Sequence record: SRR31156797_302
Strand: one strand, 5' to 3'
Length of the DNA: 54,381 nucleotides
Made by a program: the position numbers and the translations under genes. Positions 31,970 through 38,911 of this stretch are shown here, piece by piece. Numbering within the stretch: position 1 is the stretch's first letter; each line of letters opens with the position of its first letter. The notes under the pieces were generated by a model. The model was not told the origin of the DNA. It was given only the letters and a program-made list of their open reading frames with translations, and ran no database searches.

Positions 31970-32737
31970 TTGAAGGATCAAATGAAACTGAGTCGACTTA
32001 GAAAAAAAATCCGGGAGCATAGCAGAAGAAGCCTTTTGCTTTCTTTGGGTATCAGTTGTTTTTTGCTTGGCGCTGCCCTCTTCTACAGCGAAAACCAGCC
32101 GGCAGCTGCCTACGAGCAGTTTTTAGAGATCGATTACTTAACTGCTTTACTGGAAGAAAGACCTTCCCCTGAGTCCATCAGCGATCTTGGCCTCGATCTC
32201 ATCAAACGTAGTGATCGGGTAAACCAAGAGCGCAGTGCCATCAACCGAAAGCGGCGCCGCGAAAATGTGATCGTCACAGAAGAGACTAGAAAAGTTTTTT
32301 CTCCCGATCAAGGAGCAATGGTTGATGAAGTAAGAAAAGTAACCACTCGCTTACCTGATTCAGCCATTGATTTGTTATCAATGATGGTTGATAGCAGCGC
32401 TCTCGAGACAAAAAGAGTGCCTTTAGGTTCACGGGACAAACTGTCCAAAATCAGCTTTGATTTTGACTTTGATGATTCTGGTAATGAAAGATTAGCGAAA
32501 ATCACATTGGTTGATGTCCCAGAATTTTTCGGTATTGATTTCTCACAATTCGAGAAAGAGGCTGATGTTGAGGAGATCAAAGAGACATTGATCGTACAGT
32601 ATGGTTTAGATGCTCACATCAGGGACGTTAGCGCCATTCGGAGACTTTTCTTTGTTCATGAAGGATTTGAGTTTTACATTAGTCATACCTACAATCCGAA
32701 TGGAGTCGGCATCACCGTCCAAGCGGTAGAACCATAA
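31970..32737 (+). CDS. Hypothetical protein with single N-terminal membrane anchor
   Basis: Basic N-terminus then hydrophobic LLLSLGISCFLLGAALF. True start may be ATG 31982. Confidence 0.65.
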   Translation: MKDQMKLSRLRKKIREHSRRSLLLSLGISCFLLGAALFYSENQPAAAYEQFLEIDYLTALLEERPSPESISDLGLDLIKRSDRVNQERSAINRKRRRENVIVTEETRKVFSPDQGAMVDEVRKVTTRLPDSAIDLLSMMVDSSALETKRVPLGSRDKLSKISFDFDFDDSGNERLAKITLVDVPEFFGIDFSQFEKEADVEEIKETLIVQYGLDAHIRDVSAIRRLFFVHEGFEFYISHTYNPNGVGITVQAVEP

Positions 32738-32776
32738 ACGAAAAATAGTTAATCCCCCTCTCTTTGCGGGATTAAC

Positions 32777-32817
32777 AAAAAAAGCGTCCGCGAATACAAA
32801 CGCAGGCACCTTTTTTC
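32777..32817 (-). terminator. luxS operon terminator
   Basis: Minus strand GGTGCCTGCG-tttgtatt-CGCGGACGCT-TTTTTT. A second hairpin GTTAATCCC..GGGATTAAC lies at 32748-32776. Confidence 0.65.
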
Positions 32818-32831
32818 TACTTCTATTTTGT

Positions 32832-33287
32832 TTAGGCAAAAACGGTCGACCAATTGTCACGTTCATCAAGAAATTCTTGCGCTAATTTTTGCGCACCTTC
32901 TAAGGTATGGTTCGCCGCCCAACCGCATTGTACTTCATTGCTGGCAGGTACTTCAGTTGCTTGCAAAACATCCTTCATGGTTTTTTCTAGGACTGTCAAA
33001 ATCTCTTCATAATCGTCATGATTCAAGACAGTCAGATAGAAGCCGGTTTGGCATCCCATGGGTGACCAATCCACGATATAATCTGCATGATTACGAATCA
33101 ACTCTGCCGTCAAATGTTCTAAAGAATGCAGACTTGCCATATCCATATGTGCTTGGTTCGGCTGCTTCAAACGAACATCATATTTGATGATGGTATCATT
33201 TGTTCCTTGTTTTTTATCGGCAACCCGTACATAAGGTGCTTTGACTTTCGTATGATCCAAATTAAAGCTTTCAACATTCATTTTCAT
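32832..33287 (-). CDS. luxS: S-ribosylhomocysteine lyase LuxS
   Basis: [35 protein letters not shown] motifs. Confidence 0.96.
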
Positions 33288-33299
33288 TGTACTTCTCTC

Positions 33300-33946
33300 C
33301 TACTCTTTTTGTGCTTCCACAAGCCAAACATACTCATTGATTTGCTTAAAACGACTGGTAAACCCATGTTGGCGAAAATATCGTTCGATATCCGCAGTAA
33401 CTGGATAGTACTCCCGTTGCAGATCAGCGGCTAGTCGCTGGTGTCCAGCTTGCCGCGCTTCATCGATTAGCTCCATTTTTCGGGCTAGGGAAAGAAACAT
33501 CGTATCCCCAAAAAGCACTTTCCCGCCTTTTGGCAGCATCGCCGCATATTTGCCGATTGCCCGTTGTTTTTCGTCCTCCGTAAGATGATGAAAAACATAG
33601 GTAGAAACGATCGTATCGATTACATCCGTGATTTCAGGAAAAACCTCCATATCACCATCTACAAAAGTCACTTTAGAAAGACTGGGTTTTGACTTGGCGA
33701 TCCGCCGCATCTCTGGCGATGGCTCGATTGCCAGCACGTTTTTCCCTTGATCAAGTAGAGCTTGTGTTAGATTTCCAGTTCCACTACCAAATTCTACCAC
33801 AGACCGCCCTGCCTTTTCAGCAATTTCAGCTAGTAACTGTTCATATTTGAAAAAAACCGCTCGATATTCTTCATCCTTACCTGCAACTGTTTCATCGTAC
33901 TCAGCTGCCCAGTCAGAAAAAATTGGAATAAACTCTCTGCCCATCA

Positions 33947-33947
<1 letters not shown>
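33300..33947 (-). CDS. Class I SAM-dependent methyltransferase (YrrT-like)
   Basis: MGREF...F..WA..YD N-terminus, EFGSGTG motif I, STYVFHHL. Context like B. subtilis yrrT. Confidence 0.85.
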
Positions 33948-36047
<2,100 letters not shown>

Positions 36048-36141
36048 CGTTTGACTCCTTATTCAGATTTTTAGGCAAAACTTGTAAGCTTCATATACCT
36101 ATTTTGGCTTGCAATCATCAGCCGTCGCCATTGAAAGCGGT

Positions 36142-36188
36142 AAAAAAAAGCAAACAAAAAGGGGTACTGACTATTACATCAGTACCCC
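36142..36188 (-). terminator. Attenuator terminator in the mccA operon leader
   Basis: Perfect 10-bp stem GGGGTACTGA-tgtaatag-TCAGTACCCC followed by TTTTTGTTTGCTTTTTTTT, between leader ORF and mccA. Confidence 0.85.
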
Positions 36189-36233
36189 AAAAAAATGTCG
36201 TCTTATCCGGATAGAAGCGAATCACTAAAAAAA

Positions 36234-36341
36234 TCAGCGATCTGCTGCGACAAAGGAACTAATAATAGGCATGACAAATGGGTATGCTGCTTTTTGCACC
36301 ATACAACAACAACAGGTAGTTTGTGTGTTGAAGTTCGTCAT
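36234..36341 (-). CDS. Poly-cysteine leader peptide MTNFNTQTTCCCCMVQKAAYPFVMPIISSFVAADR (putative attenuation leader)
   Basis: AAGGAGG RBS (36351-36357) 9 nt before ATG 36341. Four tandem TGT codons at 36303-36314, TGA at 36234-36236. Confidence 0.85.
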   Translation of the reverse strand: MTNFNTQTTCCCCMVQKAAYPFVMPIISSFVAADR

Positions 36342-36373
36342 GTCTTGTTCCCTCCTTTAATTTGCTTGTTATC

Positions 36374-36402
36374 AAAATAGCACGACTCTTTTTTTTTGTC
36401 AA
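36374..36402 (-). promoter_or_regulatory. Sigma-A promoter of the leader and mccA operon
   Basis: TTGACA (36397-36402), 17-bp spacer, extended -10 TGcTATTTT (36374-36382), A-rich upstream tract. Confidence 0.7.
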
Positions 36403-36453
36403 ATATTTTTTTTAATCAACAAGTATCGATCAATGAACGTTTATAAAATAACA

Positions 36454-37554
36454 TTAAAGAGGATAATAAGCAGTCACATAGGCATCCACGGCTTTGATCG
36501 CGGCTACAACATCTTCTGCGGATACCGTGAACGGCATATTGTGAATCGTCTCCCCTTCGATGGTTGCTTGTTTACCGACTTTCATAAGCTCTGCATCGCT
36601 AACATCAGAAAGATGCATTTCAGCTAATGTCGTTGGTAATTCCAACGCCTGATACAACTCAATATATTGGTCAATTTCATCAGGATCCGCGTTTTCCAGC
36701 ATCAATTGTGTAAGTGTCCCGTAAGCAACTTTCTCCCCATGAGTCAAATCATGGACGTCTCCTTCAAGGGCTGTCAAGCCATTATGGATCGCATGAGCTG
36801 CTGCCAAACCAGCACTTTCAAAGCCTAAACCACTTAACAGAGTGTTGGCTTCCACGATTTGTTCAAAAGCTTCGGTAACGACTTGTTTTTTATTTGCTTG
36901 ATAGGCTTTCAGTGCATTCTCAAAAAGAATCTCTTCGCATTTTTCAGCGATTGCCATGCCGGCAATTGGTTGAATACCACCCACCATATTCTTACTATGG
37001 CTTCGGGCAACGGCGCGTGCTTCGACATAGGTTGCTAGTGCATCCGCAATACCCGCTGCAAGTAATTTGGCAGGCGCTTTCGCAATAACGGCTGTATCCA
37101 CTAAGACAAGTTCAGGGTTTTTGTTGTAAAAACGATATTTTTCAAAGCGACCTTCATCTGTATAAATAACAGAAAGTGCCGAAGTTGGTGCATCAGTAGA
37201 AGCGATCGTTGGCAAAACAGCAATCGGTATGTTTAATTCATCCGCAACAGCTTTCCCAGTATCGATGGCTTTCCCGCCACCTAATGCAGCAATTACTTCA
37301 ATGGATTCGCTTTTGGCTTTAGAGACGATACGATCGATTTCATTTGCAGAAGCTTCTCCACCAAAAATTTCTTTTACCGGACCTAAATCAGCCGCTTTGA
37401 GATTTTCAAATAAATCTTCCCCGGCAATTTTCCAAACTGTTTCATCGGTCAAAAGCAGCACTTTCTTTCCTAGATCTTTAATGTGAGATAAACCATCCTT
37501 CAATACTCCTTTTCCTTGAACGTATCGTGACGGACTCGCAAATATTCTTTCCAT
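36454..37554 (-). CDS. gldA: Glycerol dehydrogenase
   Basis: FASPSRYVQG, GGGKAIDT, PTIASTDAP, AHAIHNGLT, HGEKVA. Start moved to ATG 37554 after AAGGAGG. Confidence 0.93.
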   Translation of the reverse strand: MERIFASPSRYVQGKGVLKDGLSHIKDLGKKVLLLTDETVWKIAGEDLFENLKAADLGPVKEIFGGEASANEIDRIVSKAKSESIEVIAALGGGKAIDTGKAVADELNIPIAVLPTIASTDAPTSALSVIYTDEGRFEKYRFYNKNPELVLVDTAVIAKAPAKLLAAGIADALATYVEARAVARSHSKNMVGGIQPIAGMAIAEKCEEILFENALKAYQANKKQVVTEAFEQIVEANTLLSGLGFESAGLAAAHAIHNGLTALEGDVHDLTHGEKVAYGTLTQLMLENADPDEIDQYIELYQALELPTTLAEMHLSDVSDAELMKVGKQATIEGETIHNMPFTVSAEDVVAAIKAVDAYVTAYYPL

Positions 37555-37685
37555 TGTATCTCCTCCTTCAATTGGTCTACTTTTATTGTGACACACTAAG
37601 CAAGCGATTTCAAAGGAAAAGAAAAAAAGATGGTCAAGAAGATTCGATTCTCGCCCATACTGCACATTTATAGCCATACAAACAC

Positions 37686-37724
37686 TCATGCCCTTATAAA
37701 ACTGATGGTTTTATAAGGGCATGA
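37686..37724 (-). terminator. Hairpin after dnaJ (17-bp perfect inverted repeat)
   Basis: TCATGCCCTTATAAAAC-tgatg-GTTTTATAAGGGCATGA. U tract is weak. Confidence 0.65.
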
Positions 37725-37741
37725 ATTGGATTATTTACTTG

Positions 37742-38911
37742 TTATTTCTTTTTCCCACCAAAAGCATCTTTCATTTTATCAAAAAATCCTTCTGGTTGTT
37801 GTTCGGTGGTTTCATGACCACTAGCTTTTGCATAAGCCCGCAATGCTTCTTTTTGTTCCTCATTTAAGTTCTTAGGTGTGATCAGCTTCACTTTGACTTG
37901 TTGATCGCCATTGCCGCCTCCCCGTAAGCGAGGTGCTCCTTTACCGCGTAAGCGGAAGTTCGTACCTGTTTGGGTCCCAGCTGGGATTTTTAACTTCACA
38001 TTCCCGTGAACGGTTGGCACATTGACCTCATCTCCTAAAGCTGCTTGGACAAAGTTCAACGGCAACTCGTAATAAATCTCTGAACCGTCACGATCAAAAA
38101 TATCACTTTCTTCCACACGGAAAACAACGTATAGGTCCCCATAAGGACCACCATTGGTTCCAGCTTCCCCTTGGCCAGATAAACGCATTTGTTGTCCATC
38201 TTCGACACCTGCAGGCACGTTGACTTTTACATTATGTTTTTTCTTTTCATGGCCAGTACCATGACAGGTTGTACATGGTTCTTTGATTTCTTTCCCAGTT
38301 CCATGACAAACATCACAGGTTTGACGGCTCATTACACGACCAAGCGGTGTTTGACGTTCAACATTGATAGTACCTGCACCATGACATTTATGACAGGTTT
38401 CTGGTGAAGTACCTGGTTTTGCCCCGTTCCCGCCGCAGGTATGACAGGTTTCTTCACGATTGTATTGAACAGTTTTTTCCACTCCGAAAATCGCTTCTTC
38501 AAAGGAAAGATCAACCGCATATTGCAAGTCTGCTCCTTGTCGAGGTGCATTAGGATTGGCTGCTCTGCCGCCTCCACCACCAAAAAACGATTCGAAAATG
38601 TCTTCAAATCCACCAAAACCGCCACCGGAGAATCCGCCACTGTTAAAGCCGCCGAATCCACCGCCATAACCGCCTCCGTAGTTCGGATCGGTACCAGCAT
38701 GACCATACTGGTCATAAGCAGCTCTTTTTTGGGAATCACTTAATATTTCATAGGCCTCAGAAATCTCTTTAAACTTTGCTTCTGCATCAGGTTCTTTATT
38801 GATGTCTGGATGATATTGTTTTGAAAGCTTACGATAAGCTTTTTTGATTTCGTCATCCGAAGCCCCTTTTTGTAGACCTAAGACCTCATAATAATCTCTT
38901 TTGTCTGCCAT
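37742..38911 (-). CDS. dnaJ: Chaperone DnaJ
   Basis: HPD J-domain, G/F region, four CxxCxGxG repeats. Confidence 0.98.

What the first reader, a model, noticed from the sequence alone, without database searches (positions are those of the whole stretch)
36048..36402. Poly-Cys leader peptide plus antiterminator/terminator: candidate ribosome-stalling cysteine attenuator for mccA-mccB-MTase-luxS
Seen on the minus strand, in order: a TTGACA-17-TGcTATTTT promoter, an AAGGAGG RBS, a 35-aa ORF (36341-36234) whose only cysteines are four consecutive UGU codons (10-13), then 45 nt after its stop a perfect 10-bp GC stem with U tract (36142-36188), then mccA. Codons 18-22 (CAGCAUACCCA, 36279-36289) can pair imperfectly with the terminator's 5' arm (UGGGGUACUG). 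That pairing would enclose an inner helix UGUCG/CGACA and AGCAGAUCGCU/AGUGAUUCGCU. Inference: a ribosome stalled on the Cys codons leaves that segment free and the antiterminator forms, while a ribosome with ample Cys-tRNA runs through it and the terminator forms, as in trp/his attenuators. Established background: Firmicute Met-to-Cys operons are known to use CymR (B. subtilis yrrT-mtnN-mccAB) or a Cys T-box with antisense S-box (C. acetobutylicum ubiG-mccBA), and poly-Cys leader ORFs are known mainly from Actinobacteria. I know of no description in enterococci but could not search the literature.
Basis: partly seen in the sequence, partly recalled or inferred. Interest (0 to 1): 0.93.

Follow-up and report, generated by a model that had tools for sequence, protein, structure and literature searches.

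The report
Cysteine-sensing leader attenuator in enterococci
A short upstream reading frame with four cysteine codons, followed by a terminator, most likely lets enterococci switch on their methionine-to-cysteine genes when cysteine runs short, and the element is conserved but was not found described in the papers searched.

Summary
On the minus strand lie a promoter-like site, an AAGGAGG ribosome-binding site, a 35-codon ORF with four consecutive TGT codons, a strong intrinsic terminator, and then mccA-mccB-methyltransferase-luxS.

The element is a conserved family, not chance. I obtained 55 distinct leader peptides from 106 Enterococcus, Vagococcus and unnamed related loci, and 51 of them carry 3-4 consecutive Cys codons. 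After the Cys run the nucleotides are conserved while the peptide frame differs.

In 134 genomes of the family, the leader was found in the same 56 genomes that hold mccB. In other loci it precedes mccB plus a cystine-type ABC transporter.

Four conserved RNA features emerged:
- a hairpin (P1) abutting the Cys codons;
- a helix that sequesters the leader's own Shine-Dalgarno sequence and start codon;
- a conserved terminator loop complementary to a leader block.

Rfam has no matching family, and ten literature searches found no Firmicute description. A second, unrelated poly-Cys leader precedes the Lacticaseibacillus paracasei cysK2-ctl1-cysE2 operon, whose cysteine control is published as unexplained.

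Verdict: a ribosome-mediated, cysteine-responsive transcription attenuator (confidence 0.8) and a new member of a known kind. No experimental evidence was obtainable.

The parts
36374..36402 (-). Promoter-like site: -35 TTGACA (36402-36397), 17-nt spacer, TG-extended -10 TGcTATTTT (36382-36374). The predicted start of transcription is near 36367.
   Evidence: 10 of 12 matches, TG present. The same TTGAC(A/T)-17-TGnTAnnnT is visible in the leaders of other genera printed. The transcription start was not measured.
36351..36357 (-). Shine-Dalgarno sequence AAGGAGG of the leader ORF, 9 nt before the ATG.
   Evidence: An SD-like sequence precedes the in-frame start in all 55 distinct leaders.
36234..36341 (-). 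Leader ORF of 35 codons plus TGA: MTNFNTQTTCCCCMVQKAAYPFVMPIISSFVAADR.
   Evidence: There are 55 distinct orthologous leader peptides. After CCC(C)MV the peptide frame differs between clades while the nucleotides are conserved.
36303..36314 (-). Four consecutive TGT (Cys) codons, codons 10-13: the proposed sensing site.
   Evidence: Among 55 distinct leaders the longest Cys run is 4 in 22, 3 in 29, 2 in 3 and 1 in 1.
36282..36304 (-). Hairpin P1. The 5' arm GTATGGTGC (36304-36296) starts inside the last Cys codon. The loop is AAAAA. The 3' arm is GCAGCATAC (36290-36282). This is segment 1:2 of the attenuator.
   Evidence: It appears in the single-sequence folds and in the RNAalifold consensus. 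One pair changes C-G to U-A in 3 sequences. Two divergent copies found by the covariance model keep the hairpin through several compensatory changes (L114, L115). The exact-pattern scan fixed these bases, so invariance among those loci is not evidence.
36279..36293 (-). Proposed 5' strand of the antiterminator (AAAGCAGCATACCCA): the P1 3' arm plus flanks, complementary to the terminator's 5' arm.
   Evidence: Sliding 14-nt windows along 52 leaders give the single strongest complementarity here: -8.1 kcal/mol against -4.6 for shuffled arms. The z-score against a shuffled partner is -1.8, with 30 of 52 below -1.64. Only 3.6% of 55 unrelated terminator arms reach the observed mean. The segment is invariant, so no covariation is possible.
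36334..36355 (-). 5' strand of the long-range helix P0: SD region GGAGGGAAC, the start codon, and codons 2-3 (CATGACGAA).
   Evidence: The core 7 pairs are formed in at least 50 of 52 sequences, with A-U to G-C in 3 and G-U in 10. The SD-start against block 2 duplex averages -20 kcal/mol, z -3.3, with 48 of 52 below -1.64. Cognate partners pair better than non-cognate ones.
36252..36278 (-). Block 2, the 3' strand of P0. TTTGTCATG (36278-36270) pairs with the start codon. CTATTAT (36268-36262) is complementary to the terminator loop. GTTCCTTT (36259-36252) pairs with the SD.
   Evidence: In 29 of 52 distinct leaders the leader stop codon is the TAA inside this block. In the window the ORF reads through it.
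36196..36252 (-). Inner hairpins between block 2 and the terminator: TGTCG/CGACA enclosing GCAGCAGATCGCTGA...AGTGATTCGCT, and TATCCGGATA.
   Evidence: Minimum-free-energy folds. The sequence is not conserved between clades. Every leader whose fold I inspected had some hairpin here, but this was not tested statistically.
36151..36188 (-). Intrinsic terminator: 5' arm GGGGTACTGA (36188-36179), loop TGTAATAG (36178-36171), 3' arm TCAGTACCCC (36170-36161), T tract 36160-36151.
   Evidence: In the stem, 7 of 10 pairs show changes on both sides across 52 sequences. The loop AATAG is nearly invariant. It is complementary to block 2b over at least 6 contiguous pairs in 49 of 52 and at least 7 in 41 of 52; shuffled loops reach 7 in 6.6% of trials.
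32784..36047 (-). Controlled operon: mccA-like cysteine synthase/cystathionine beta-synthase family (36047-35082), mccB-like cystathionine gamma-lyase family (35092-33947), SAM-dependent methyltransferase (33947-33300), luxS (33287-32832), and the operon terminator (32803-32784).
   Evidence: NCBIfam matches and the terminator. The same gene order follows the leader in other species.

Best explanation
This is a ribosome-mediated transcription attenuator that reads the supply of charged tRNA-Cys.

Transcription starts about 25 nt before a 35-codon leader ORF. A ribosome loads on the nascent RNA and reaches four UGU codons.

When Cys-tRNA is plentiful, the ribosome runs on through block 2. Behind it the local hairpin P1 (GUAUGGUGC/GCAGCAUAC) re-forms and holds the segment GCAGCAUACC. 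The terminator (GGGGUACUGA...UCAGUACCCC plus U tract) then folds, and RNA polymerase stops before mccA.

When Cys-tRNA is scarce, the ribosome stalls with a UGU codon in its A site. Its leading edge covers the 5' arm of P1, which begins inside the last Cys codon. GCAGCAUACC(C) is left free and pairs with the terminator's 5' arm as that arm emerges. The terminator cannot form, and mccA-mccB-methyltransferase-luxS are transcribed. Those genes convert methionine-derived homocysteine to cysteine.

Without any translation, P1 and the terminator both form, so the default state is off.

A second conserved helix, P0, pairs the leader's own SD and start codon with block 2 once block 2 is made. I infer that it closes the leader to further ribosomes, so that one ribosome makes the decision and untranslated RNA terminates. 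The conserved terminator loop is complementary to block 2b, which may lengthen the antiterminator.

Shown here: the parts, their conservation, the covariation of P0, P1 and the terminator, the enriched 2:3 complementarity, and the regulon.

Inferred: stalling, the timing, and the roles of P0 and the loop contact.
For: Anatomy at the stated coordinates.

Family:
- The leader DNA was found in 8 of 8 genomes of the genus and in 5 further genera.
- The exact-pattern scan gave 48 Enterococcus or Vagococcus loci.
- A covariance model found it in 57 of 134 family genomes, in 7 of 17 genera.

Coding signature:
- 55 distinct leader peptides, 51 with 3-4 consecutive Cys codons.
- All have an SD-led in-frame start, though 9-17 unrelated codons precede the Cys run.
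- Downstream of CCC(C)MV the nucleotides are conserved but read in different frames.

Structure:
- P0 and P1 are predicted independently by RNAalifold.
- 94% of cells form pairs, against 25-52% when partners are slid. Ten pairs show double changes, and 0 of 500 shuffles reach that.
- P1 is kept by compensatory changes in the divergent copies L114 and L115.
- The terminator's 5' arm matches the P1 3' arm best of all leader positions and far better than unrelated terminators do.
- In truncated-transcript folds the terminator arm pairs with leader segments at P = 0.53 when the SD-to-Cys stretch is occupied. It is 0.06 in free RNA and 0.01 with a ribosome at the stop codon.

Regulon:
- Downstream genes are mccA, mccB, a methyltransferase and luxS. 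In a second copy per genome they are mccB plus cystine-type ABC transporter genes, and in Vagococcus acidifermentans (L057) the transporter genes follow the leader directly, with no mccB-like ORF detected.
- Leader and mccB occur in the same 56 genomes of six genera and are both missing from the other genomes of those genera.

Analogue with published data:
- The L. paracasei cysK2-ctl1-cysE2 leader carries MMSQSMFNAINCCCRTTRFWRCSAC between the promoter and the terminator motif named in PMC6004538.
- Passages of that paper read report induction without cysteine, high 5'-UTR read coverage, and a mechanism 'yet to be discovered'.
Against: There is no experimental evidence for translation of the leader, for a 3' end at the hairpin, or for a cysteine response in enterococci. 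The only RNA runs that hold the locus are assembled contigs, which cannot show ends or levels.

The antiterminator strand is invariant, so its pairing has no covariation support. The pairing is imperfect (about -8 kcal/mol, with bulges) and uses different registers in different clades.

When only the footprint of one stalled ribosome is masked, thermodynamic folding keeps P0 and the terminator arm does not pair with the leader. The switch appears in silico only if the SD-start region is also occupied, or if a pseudoknot is allowed, which the program cannot model.

Four of 55 leaders have fewer than three consecutive Cys codons. One copy (L115) has a single Cys yet keeps P1 and the terminator.

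The sequences are related, so counts across them overstate independence.

The pattern scan fixed the P1 bases, so their invariance in those loci is by construction.
Confidence: 0.8

Rival explanations
1. The element is a Cys-codon attenuator, but the working antiterminator is not the P1 3' arm. Block 2 (CUAUUAU-AGUUCC...) would pair with the terminator's 5' arm and loop. P0 (SD/start with block 2) would be the anti-antiterminator. Stalling would act by keeping ribosomes on the SD-start region, through queuing or steric exclusion, rather than by melting P1. Alternatively both contacts form together as a pseudoknot.
For: The terminator loop is conserved and complementary to block 2b: at least 7 contiguous pairs in 41 of 52, against 6.6% of shuffled loops. 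The window clade changes both sides (CTATTAT with GTAATAG). The E. faecalis-type leader (L013) lacks both motifs. With the SD-to-Cys stretch masked, the arm pairs with block 2 at P = 0.38 and with the P1 arm at 0.15. In 29 of 52 leaders the stop codon lies inside block 2b, so a terminating ribosome would cover it.
Against: The duplex between block 2b with its extension and the terminator arm is no better than with shuffled arms (z -0.46), and cognate pairs are no better than non-cognate ones. In the sliding-window scan this region is only a secondary minimum, 1.7 kcal/mol better than shuffled, against 3.6 for the P1 arm. L013 works, if it works at all, without this contact.
Confidence: 0.1
2. 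The leader RNA is a structured sensor of something other than ribosome stalling, such as a protein-, tRNA- or metabolite-binding RNA. The small ORF would be incidental or secondary.
For: P0, P1 and the terminator loop are conserved at the nucleotide level beyond what the codons need. One copy (L115) keeps the structure after losing the Cys run.
Against: No Rfam family, T-box or S-box, matches even at E up to 10, and none matches in five related loci at gathering thresholds. All 55 distinct leaders keep an SD and an in-frame start before the Cys codons, despite unrelated N-terminal sequences of 9-17 codons. Two unrelated leader families upstream of the same kind of operon also encode Cys runs.
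Confidence: 0.04
3. Cysteine control of the operon is exerted mainly by a DNA-binding regulator at the promoter (CymR-, CysR- or CmbR-like). The leader terminator would only set a constant low level or stabilise the RNA.
For: CymR controls the B. subtilis yrrT-mtnN-mccAB operon (recalled, not from a call). LysR-type factors regulate sulfur amino-acid genes in streptococci and lactococci (PMC6004538, introduction passage). The promoter region is conserved among close relatives. One other family in the order has mccA-mccB with no leader ORF or terminator (L127).
Against: This does not explain the conserved Cys run, the in-frame SD-led ORF, the hairpin abutting the Cys codons, or the presence of the same leader before different operons. 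I did not search for operator motifs, so dual control is not excluded.
Confidence: 0.04
4. The small ORF encodes a functional cysteine-rich peptide, such as a metal-binding peptide or a modified-peptide precursor, and is not a regulatory leader.
For: It is annotated as a 45-aa hypothetical protein in an E. faecalis record. Cys-rich short peptides exist as natural-product precursors (general knowledge).
Against: Only CCC(C)MV is shared. The C-terminal half is read in different frames in different clades, and the ORF is 26-45 codons long. It has no NCBIfam match. A terminator always follows it. It travels with cysteine-supply operons.
Confidence: 0.02

Closest known systems
Classical leader-peptide transcription attenuators of amino-acid operons (E. 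coli and Salmonella trp, his, leu, thr, pheA)
   Same: A short SD-led ORF carries tandem codons for the regulating amino acid. A hairpin next to those codons (1:2) has a 3' arm complementary to the terminator's 5' arm (2:3). An intrinsic terminator (3:4) follows, then the genes that supply that amino acid. Pairing of the leader's ribosome-binding site with a downstream segment was also reported for trpL (recalled, not from a call).
   Different: The amino acid is cysteine and the host is a Firmicute, where T-boxes are the usual device. The regulatory codons lie just upstream of segment 1 rather than within it. The ORF continues 22 codons past the Cys run through a second conserved block. The terminator loop is conserved. 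There is no sequence similarity: the only Rfam leader hit is Phe_leader at 20.2 bits against a threshold of 55.
Cys-codon leader peptides predicted in Actinobacteria (PMC1262725; I saw only the search listing and the start of the abstract)
   Same: A leader-peptide attenuator with cysteine codons ahead of cysteine metabolism genes, predicted by comparative genomics.
   Different: The phylum and the sequence family differ. I did not read the details, so the target genes and structures cannot be compared.
Polycysteine leaderless short ORFs of mycobacteria, the 'Cys ribulon' (bioRxiv 10.1101/834739; abstract and outline read)
   Same: Ribosome stalling on a poly-Cys tract in a short upstream ORF raises expression of cysteine-related operons. 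Several loci per genome share the sensor and so form a regulon.
   Different: [quoted passage not shown] Here the ORF has an SD and a predicted 25-nt 5' UTR, and an intrinsic terminator is the output.
uORFC-8-2 motif upstream of cysS in Rhodobacterales (PMC8632094; passage read)
   Same: A uORF with tandem Cys codons, two stems, and a terminal U run, interpreted as ribosome-mediated attenuation.
   Different: It has two Cys codons inside the first stem. It is found only before cysteinyl-tRNA synthetase genes in alpha-proteobacteria. The sequence is unrelated.
Known controls of Met-to-Cys operons in Firmicutes: CymR on B. subtilis yrrT-mtnN-mccAB (recalled), and the Cys T-box plus antisense RNA on C. 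acetobutylicum ubiG-mccBA (mentioned in PMC6004538)
   Same: The same pathway genes (mccA, mccB, a methyltransferase, luxS or mtnN) are put under cysteine control.
   Different: The sensor differs. There is no T-box or S-box here. A translated Cys-codon leader takes the place of a repressor or a tRNA-binding RNA.
5' UTR of the Lacticaseibacillus paracasei cysK2-ctl1-cysE2 operon (PMC6004538; abstract and passages read)
   Same: Promoter, SD-led short ORF with CCC, a hairpin directly after the Cys codons, a strong terminator, and mccA/mccB-type genes. The published data show induction without cysteine and heavy 5'-UTR coverage.
   Different: The leader family is different: MMSQSMFNAINCCCRTTRFWRCSAC with a GGGCGCGAAA...TTTCGCGCCC terminator. 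My covariance model did not find it. The operon carries cysE instead of methyltransferase-luxS, and here it lies on a plasmid. The passages of the paper that I read do not mention the ORF.

Membership tests
Leader-peptide (ribosome-mediated) transcription attenuator | Short ORF with its own ribosome-binding site in the 5' leader | tested here: met
   AAGGAGG-9 nt-ATG and a 35-codon ORF. All 55 distinct leaders have an SD-led in-frame start.
Leader-peptide (ribosome-mediated) transcription attenuator | Run of codons for the amino acid whose supply the operon serves | tested here: met
   Four TGT codons in the window. 51 of 55 distinct leaders have 3-4 consecutive Cys codons, 3 have two, and 1 has one.
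Leader-peptide (ribosome-mediated) transcription attenuator | Intrinsic terminator between the leader ORF and the first structural gene | tested here: met
   for the window. A terminator is present in 52 of 52 distinct leaders, and 7 of 10 stem pairs covary.
Leader-peptide (ribosome-mediated) transcription attenuator | Hairpin 1:2 placed so that a ribosome stalled on the regulatory codons melts it | tested here: met
   The P1 5' arm starts inside the last Cys codon. P1 is in the RNAalifold consensus. Compensatory changes occur in 3 sequences and in the divergent copies L114 and L115. That a ribosome melts it is inferred from footprint sizes.
Leader-peptide (ribosome-mediated) transcription attenuator | Segment 2 can pair with segment 3 (antiterminator), excluding the terminator | tested here: inconclusive
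   Complementarity is enriched at exactly this position. But the pairing is imperfect, its register differs between clades, and the invariant strand allows no covariation. A rival pairing with block 2 exists.
Leader-peptide (ribosome-mediated) transcription attenuator | Read-through rises on starvation for the amino acid and depends on translation of the leader | not testable with these tools
   The RNA runs are available only as contigs. Indirect support comes only from the unrelated L. paracasei leader (PMC6004538).
T-box riboswitch (Rfam RF00230) | Match to the T-box covariance model (specifier loop, T-box sequence) | tested here: not met
   No T-box hit at E up to 10 in window 35000-37500, and none at gathering score in five related loci.
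SAM (S-box) riboswitch | Match to a SAM riboswitch model | tested here: not met
   No hit.
Mycobacterial polycysteine leaderless sORF attenuators | Leaderless start (transcript begins at the start codon) | tested here: not met
   The SD lies 9 nt upstream of the ATG, and the promoter-like -10 ends 32 nt upstream of the ATG. The transcription start is predicted, not measured.
Mycobacterial polycysteine leaderless sORF attenuators | Output is unmasking of the downstream gene's ribosome-binding site | not tested
   I did not analyse pairing of the mccA ribosome-binding site. The conserved output element here is a terminator.
Existing Rfam leader families (Phe_leader and others) | Score at or above the family's gathering threshold | tested here: not met
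   The best is Phe_leader at 20.2 bits against 55, E = 3.3, and it covers the terminator region only.

The most novel reading that the evidence does not exclude
Lactobacillales may run a ribosome-read cysteine regulon built from at least two independently evolved poly-Cys leader families.

In the enterococcal family the switch would be more elaborate than the trp paradigm in three ways:
- A helix sequestering the SD and start codon would restrict the decision to a single pioneer ribosome.
- The antiterminator would be a bipartite pseudoknot, in which the P1 3' arm pairs with the terminator's 5' arm while block 2b pairs with the conserved terminator loop.
- In the mccB-transporter operons a second mini-ORF that starts M-C-C(-C), just after the terminator, would add a second, translational checkpoint.
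Probability: 0.25. Interest if true: 0.75.

Novelty: new member of a known kind. Interest (0 to 1): 0.6.

Why it matters
Firmicutes usually sense amino acids with T-boxes, riboswitches or repressors. A conserved leader-peptide attenuator for cysteine would be an unrecorded regulatory family: it is absent from Rfam, and ten searches of the held literature found no description.

It occurs in a clinically important group. A leader identical to that of an E. faecalis record and leaders from E. lactis, E. gallinarum, E. casseliflavus, E. avium and E. raffinosus are all in the set.

It ties reverse transsulfuration, luxS and cystine uptake into one ribosome-read regulon.

A second leader family gives a concrete, testable answer to a published open question: how cysteine represses the cysK2-ctl1-cysE2 operon of Lacticaseibacillus paracasei, which matters for sulfur flavour in cheese.

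The element is also a compact natural cysteine-responsive switch with clear mutational tests.

Tried and rejected
RNA evidence:
- The look-up of sequencing runs failed once because the machine was busy. On repeat it gave 22 runs, all kept as assembled contigs.
- Four of them were laid on 32700-36900. Contigs run through the whole operon. They break only at the A-run in the promoter (X1) and near the T tract after the terminator (X18). These breaks are likely assembly effects. Nothing can be said about transcript ends or levels.

Thermodynamic switch test: masking only one stalled ribosome's footprint did not change the predicted pairing of the terminator arm. This is not decisive, because the program cannot model pseudoknots, kinetics or sterics.

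Block 2b plus its extension as the sole antiterminator: its duplex with the terminator arm is no better than with shuffled arms. I kept it only as a rival reading because of the loop complementarity.

Weak covariance-model hit L113 (27 bits, E = 0.02, another family): by eye it lay inside longer open frames and had no leader features, so I dropped it as chance.

The eight non-Enterococcaceae hits of the pattern scan were dropped as chance. They had two Cys codons only, as the pattern required, and neither an SD nor a third Cys.

mccB-like hits of 44-51% identity in other families (L118, L119, L123-L126) are paralogous lyases without Cys leaders and were not pursued.

Papers I could not read:
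- Liu et al. 2012, PMC3434756.
- Rodionov et al. 2004, PMC443535.
- The Term-seq paper I tried under PMC5756622.

Any of these, or closed supplements of the enterococcal RNA-map paper, might already list this leader. The main text of that paper (PMC7724050) has no hit for cysteine, leader peptide, attenuat or EF0288/EF0289.
Full report
**Observation**

- TTGACA-17-TATTTT with an upstream TG lies at 36402-36374.
- AAGGAGG lies at 36357-36351.
- An ATG at 36341 opens a 35-codon ORF that ends at 36234. Its peptide is MTNFNTQTTCCCCMVQKAAYPFVMPIISSFVAADR, and its only cysteines are four TGT codons at 36314-36303.
- The terminator hairpin is at 36188-36161 (11 pairs, 6 G-C) and is followed by a T tract.
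- An mccA-like gene starts at 36047.

NCBIfam scans name the following genes: a cysteine synthase/cystathionine beta-synthase family protein, a cystathionine gamma-lyase/synthase family protein, a class I SAM methyltransferase, and LuxS. A terminator at 32803-32784 closes the operon.

The promoter match alone is not above chance, with 8 sites against 9.0 expected. The 336-nt leader as a whole folds better than all 100 shuffles, z -3.39. No Rfam family matches, even at E up to 10.

**The element is a conserved family**

BLAST of the leader against 61 related genomes found it in 8 of 8 genomes of the same genus and in five other genera. The conserved core was the Cys codons plus the 50 nt after them.

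All 14 loci carried a small ORF with CCC or CCCC followed by MV. After that point the peptide reads AAYRFVMPI in some clades and SSILICHAY in others, while the DNA is nearly the same. Downstream of the Cys run, selection therefore acts on the RNA and not on the peptide.

I then scanned one genome for each of 185,579 species with an exact pattern that demanded only two Cys codons. It returned 56 loci.
- 48 came from Enterococcus (46) or Vagococcus (2). All 48 had a third in-frame Cys codon and an in-frame start. A strict SD pattern preceded it in 45, and a GGGG-type SD in the other 3.
- 8 came from unrelated phyla and had neither. I treat them as chance; eight is about what I estimated by hand for a 20-base pattern.

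A covariance model built from 52 distinct leaders found the element in 57 of 134 genomes of the family, in 7 of 17 genera. In a sample of 151 genomes of the order, the only solid hit outside the family was one genome of a second family. By its locus that genome corresponds to Vagococcus acidifermentans.

Over all 106 loci there are 55 distinct leader peptides. The longest Cys run is 4 in 22 of them, 3 in 29, 2 in 3, and 1 in 1. The codons before the first Cys number 9 to 17 and are unrelated between clades, yet an SD-led start is always in frame.

**The regulon**

The genes after the leader fall into three arrangements.
- mccA-mccB-methyltransferase-luxS, or parts of it.
- In many genomes of the E. 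avium/raffinosus type a second leader copy precedes mccB and three genes. Their best NCBIfam matches are the cystine ABC transporter binding protein, permease and ATPase, though all score below the curated cut-offs.
- In Vagococcus acidifermentans (L057) the genes after the leader are the transporter genes, with no mccB-like ORF detected, and in the divergent copy L114 a putative binding-protein gene follows (by eye).

Across the 134 family genomes, an mccB orthologue at E 1e-130 or better occurs in 65. In six genera the 56 genomes with mccB are exactly the 56 with the leader, and the other genomes of those genera lack both.

There are two exceptions.
- One genome (G124) has the leader before a putative substrate-binding-protein gene (read by eye) and has no mccB.
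- One genus has mccB in 9 of 11 genomes without this leader. The two genomes I inspected there have a different leader (see 'A second leader family' below).

**Conserved RNA features**

1. Hairpin P1 is GTATGGTGC/GCAGCATAC, and its 5' arm begins inside the last Cys codon. It appears in single-sequence folds and in the RNAalifold consensus. One of its pairs changes C-G to U-A in three sequences. Its invariance among pattern-scan loci is by construction. The two most divergent model hits are more telling: they keep the hairpin through several compensatory changes, GTATGATGGA/TCCATTATAC in L114 and CTATGGTAC/GTAGCATAG in L115.

2. Helix P0 is long-range and pairs the start-codon region (CATGACGAA) with TTTGTCATG 25 nt after P1. 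It extends to the SD through clade-specific partners: GGAGGGAAC/GTTCCTTT in the window clade, TCAGGAC/GTTCTGA and GGTAG/CTGCC in others.
   - The seven core pairs form in at least 50 of 52 sequences, with A-U to G-C in 3 and G-U in 10.
   - The SD-start against block 2 duplex averages -20 kcal/mol, z -3.3 against shuffled partners, with 48 of 52 below -1.64.
   - Cognate partners pair better than non-cognate ones, -20.0 against -17.2.

3. In the terminator stem, 7 of 10 pairs show changes on both sides.

4. For P0, P1 and the terminator together, 94% of cells are paired, against 25-52% when partners are slid by 1-3 columns. None of 500 shuffles reach the observed covariation.

5. The terminator loop (T)TAATAG is nearly invariant, which is unusual for a terminator. 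It is complementary to block 2b (CTATTAA) over at least 6 contiguous pairs in 49 of 52 leaders and at least 7 in 41 of 52. Only 6.6% of shuffled loops reach 7. The window clade has CTATTAT with GTAATAG, a change on both sides. The E. faecalis-type leader lacks both motifs.

**Which antiterminator?**

I slid a 14-nt window along each of the 52 leaders and scored its duplex with the terminator's 5' arm.
It scores -8.1 kcal/mol against -4.6 for shuffled arms.
- Weaker minima lie at TTGTCATGCC and at block 2b.
- Against 55 unrelated terminator arms taken from the same loci, the mean is -8.2 against -4.0, and 3.6% of controls reach the observed mean.

This is the classical 1:2, 2:3, 3:4 layout. The Cys codons lie immediately upstream of segment 1, so a ribosome with UGU in its A site would cover the P1 5' arm. 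That step is inferred from usual footprint sizes.

Four caveats apply.
- The segment is invariant, so covariation cannot test the pairing.
- The pairing has bulges and uses different registers in different clades.
- Folding transcripts cut before the terminator's 3' arm, with only one stalled ribosome masked, left P0 intact and the arm unpaired with the leader.
- When the whole SD-to-Cys stretch was masked, the arm paired with the P1 arm (P = 0.15) or with block 2 (P = 0.38). The combined figure was 0.06 in free RNA and 0.01 with a ribosome at the stop codon.

Both contacts could coexist only as a pseudoknot, which these programs cannot model. I therefore commit to the stall-dependent switch and to the P1-arm antiterminator as the most likely pairing. 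The block 2b-loop contact remains an open rival or addition.

P0 most simply closes the leader's ribosome-binding site once block 2 is made. That would enforce default termination and limit the decision to the first ribosome. This role is inferred.

In 29 of 52 leaders the stop codon is the TAA inside block 2b. In the window clade a one-base difference shifts the frame and the ORF runs 11 codons further.

**A second leader family and published data**

The mccB protein found orthologous operons in other families of the order.
(L117), both. The second is followed by a terminator. For the first, the simple scan found none.
- A third genome (L127) has no such ORF and no terminator.

A tblastn search of the plasmid collection found the mccA-mccB-cysE cluster on 32 Lacticaseibacillus plasmids.

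On L. paracasei pLC2W the region between a TTGACA-17-TACATT promoter-like site and the first gene has these features:
- It encodes MMSQSMFNAINCCCRTTRFWRCSAC behind a GGAGG.
- A hairpin follows directly after the Cys codons.
- The sequence AAGGGCGCGAAA-N16-TTTCGCGCCCTT follows. This is exactly the motif that PMC6004538 describes as a rho-independent terminator in the 5' UTR of cysK2-ctl1-cysE2.
- The best partner of that terminator's 5' arm lies in the hairpin after the Cys codons, at -14.6 kcal/mol.

According to the abstract and passages I read, PMC6004538 reports that the operon is up-regulated without cysteine, that its 5' UTR has very high read coverage, and that the mechanism 'is yet to be discovered'. 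The passages I read do not mention the small ORF.

The enterococcal genus whose mccB lacks the first leader has a related leader in 2 of 2 genomes inspected: M(N/S)YAKFN.FSYSCCQ..., then a hairpin and a GGCGCGAAAA-type terminator. No Rfam family matches any of these loci.

Poly-Cys leaders before Met-to-Cys operons thus appear in at least two unrelated sequence families in Lactobacillales. For one of them there is published cysteine-dependent behaviour.

**Comparison with what is known**

The working principle is that of the trp and his attenuators. Cysteine versions are in print in three settings:
- Actinobacteria (PMC1262725; listing and start of abstract only).
- Mycobacteria, where leaderless poly-Cys ORFs act on translation (10.1101/834739; abstract read).
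- cysS of Rhodobacterales (PMC8632094; passage read).

Ten full-text searches found no description of a Cys-codon leader in enterococci or other Firmicutes. All papers that combine 'polycysteine', 'attenuat' and 'leader' concern mycobacteria or unrelated topics.

The main text of the enterococcal RNA-map paper has no relevant term. Two comparative-genomics papers on sulfur amino-acid regulation in these bacteria, and the Term-seq paper I tried, were not held. Supplements were closed. Prior mention there cannot be excluded.

In an E. faecalis record the leader ORF is annotated only as a 45-aa hypothetical protein upstream of the EF0289/EF0290-type genes.

**Verdict**

It is a new member of a known kind of regulator. 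The mechanism is not new in principle, but this family is absent from Rfam and I found no description of it in the papers searched. It is widespread in a medically relevant genus, and it comes with a sister family that answers a published open question.

No experimental evidence could be obtained here.

Noticed in passing
L010, L019, L026, L027, L034, L037, L039, L042, L047, L058, L064, L065 (0-260 nt after the leader terminator): In 12 of 15 loci examined where the leader precedes mccB plus the cystine-type transporter, a second mini-ORF lies between the terminator and mccB. It has a strong SD and starts M-C-C(-C): MCCCLADERRK, MCCRLTVNKS, MCCHCIAERR, and one with MCSC. L034 uses a GTG start. 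It could be a second, translational cysteine checkpoint. The window has no such ORF.
   Followed up: partly
L115 (G062:C32:195933-196040, minus strand): This second, divergent leader copy lies upstream of an mccA-like gene. Its Cys run has decayed to one Cys (MANRQLLTTVCWTMVRKK), yet P1 and the terminator are kept through compensatory changes. It may be a decaying copy or one with another input.
   Followed up: partly
L121 (NC_017475.1, L. paracasei plasmid pLC2W) 2330-2530: There is an unannotated SD-led ORF, MMSQSMFNAINCCCRTTRFWRCSAC, between the promoter-like site and the published terminator motif of the cysK2-ctl1-cysE2 type operon. The cluster is flanked by an IS5 transposase. It occurs on 32 Lacticaseibacillus plasmids in the collection.
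   Followed up: partly
L128, L129 (G152, G022), upstream of mccA-mccB-cysE: A 29-codon SD-led ORF, M(N/S)YAKFN.FSYSCCQ.SR..., has two consecutive Cys codons, a 12-bp hairpin directly after them, and a GGCGCGAAAA...TTTTCGCGCC terminator. It resembles the Lacticaseibacillus leader.
   Followed up: partly
L122 (NZ_CP143580.1, E. faecalis) 2374-2511: The leader ORF is annotated as hypothetical protein WP_002355203.1 (45 aa). This E. faecalis-type leader lacks both block 2b and the AATAG terminator loop. The record is filed as a 747-kb 'plasmid' but carries housekeeping genes such as efp and pyrD.
   Followed up: no
PMC2902013, Table 1 (E. faecalis V583): EF0290 (mccB-type) was among only 15 genes changed at all three time points after chloramphenicol: log fold change -0.45, -1.66, then +1.07. 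That would fit a ribosome-read leader but has many other explanations.
   Followed up: no
L002 and L025 (E. innesii GAL7), mccA: The mccA-like frame ends after 190 codons, and a 489-codon frame then runs into mccB (open frame of 489 aa). This suggests a frameshift in mccA in that lineage, although the leader is identical to the window's.
   Followed up: no
window 36061-36150 (minus strand): About 100 nt lie between the terminator and the mccA start. They contain ACCGCTTTCA.TGG.GACG, which is conserved among the closest relatives. The sub-threshold Rfam Phe_leader hit (20.2 bits against 55) falls here and on the terminator. The function is unknown.
   Followed up: no
window 36454-37689 and 37742-38911 (minus strand): The upstream neighbours are a glycerol dehydrogenase gene (the listed ORF has an N-terminal extension, and the family match starts at residue 46) and dnaJ. 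The leader promoter lies in the 50-nt gap after the gldA stop codon.
   Followed up: no
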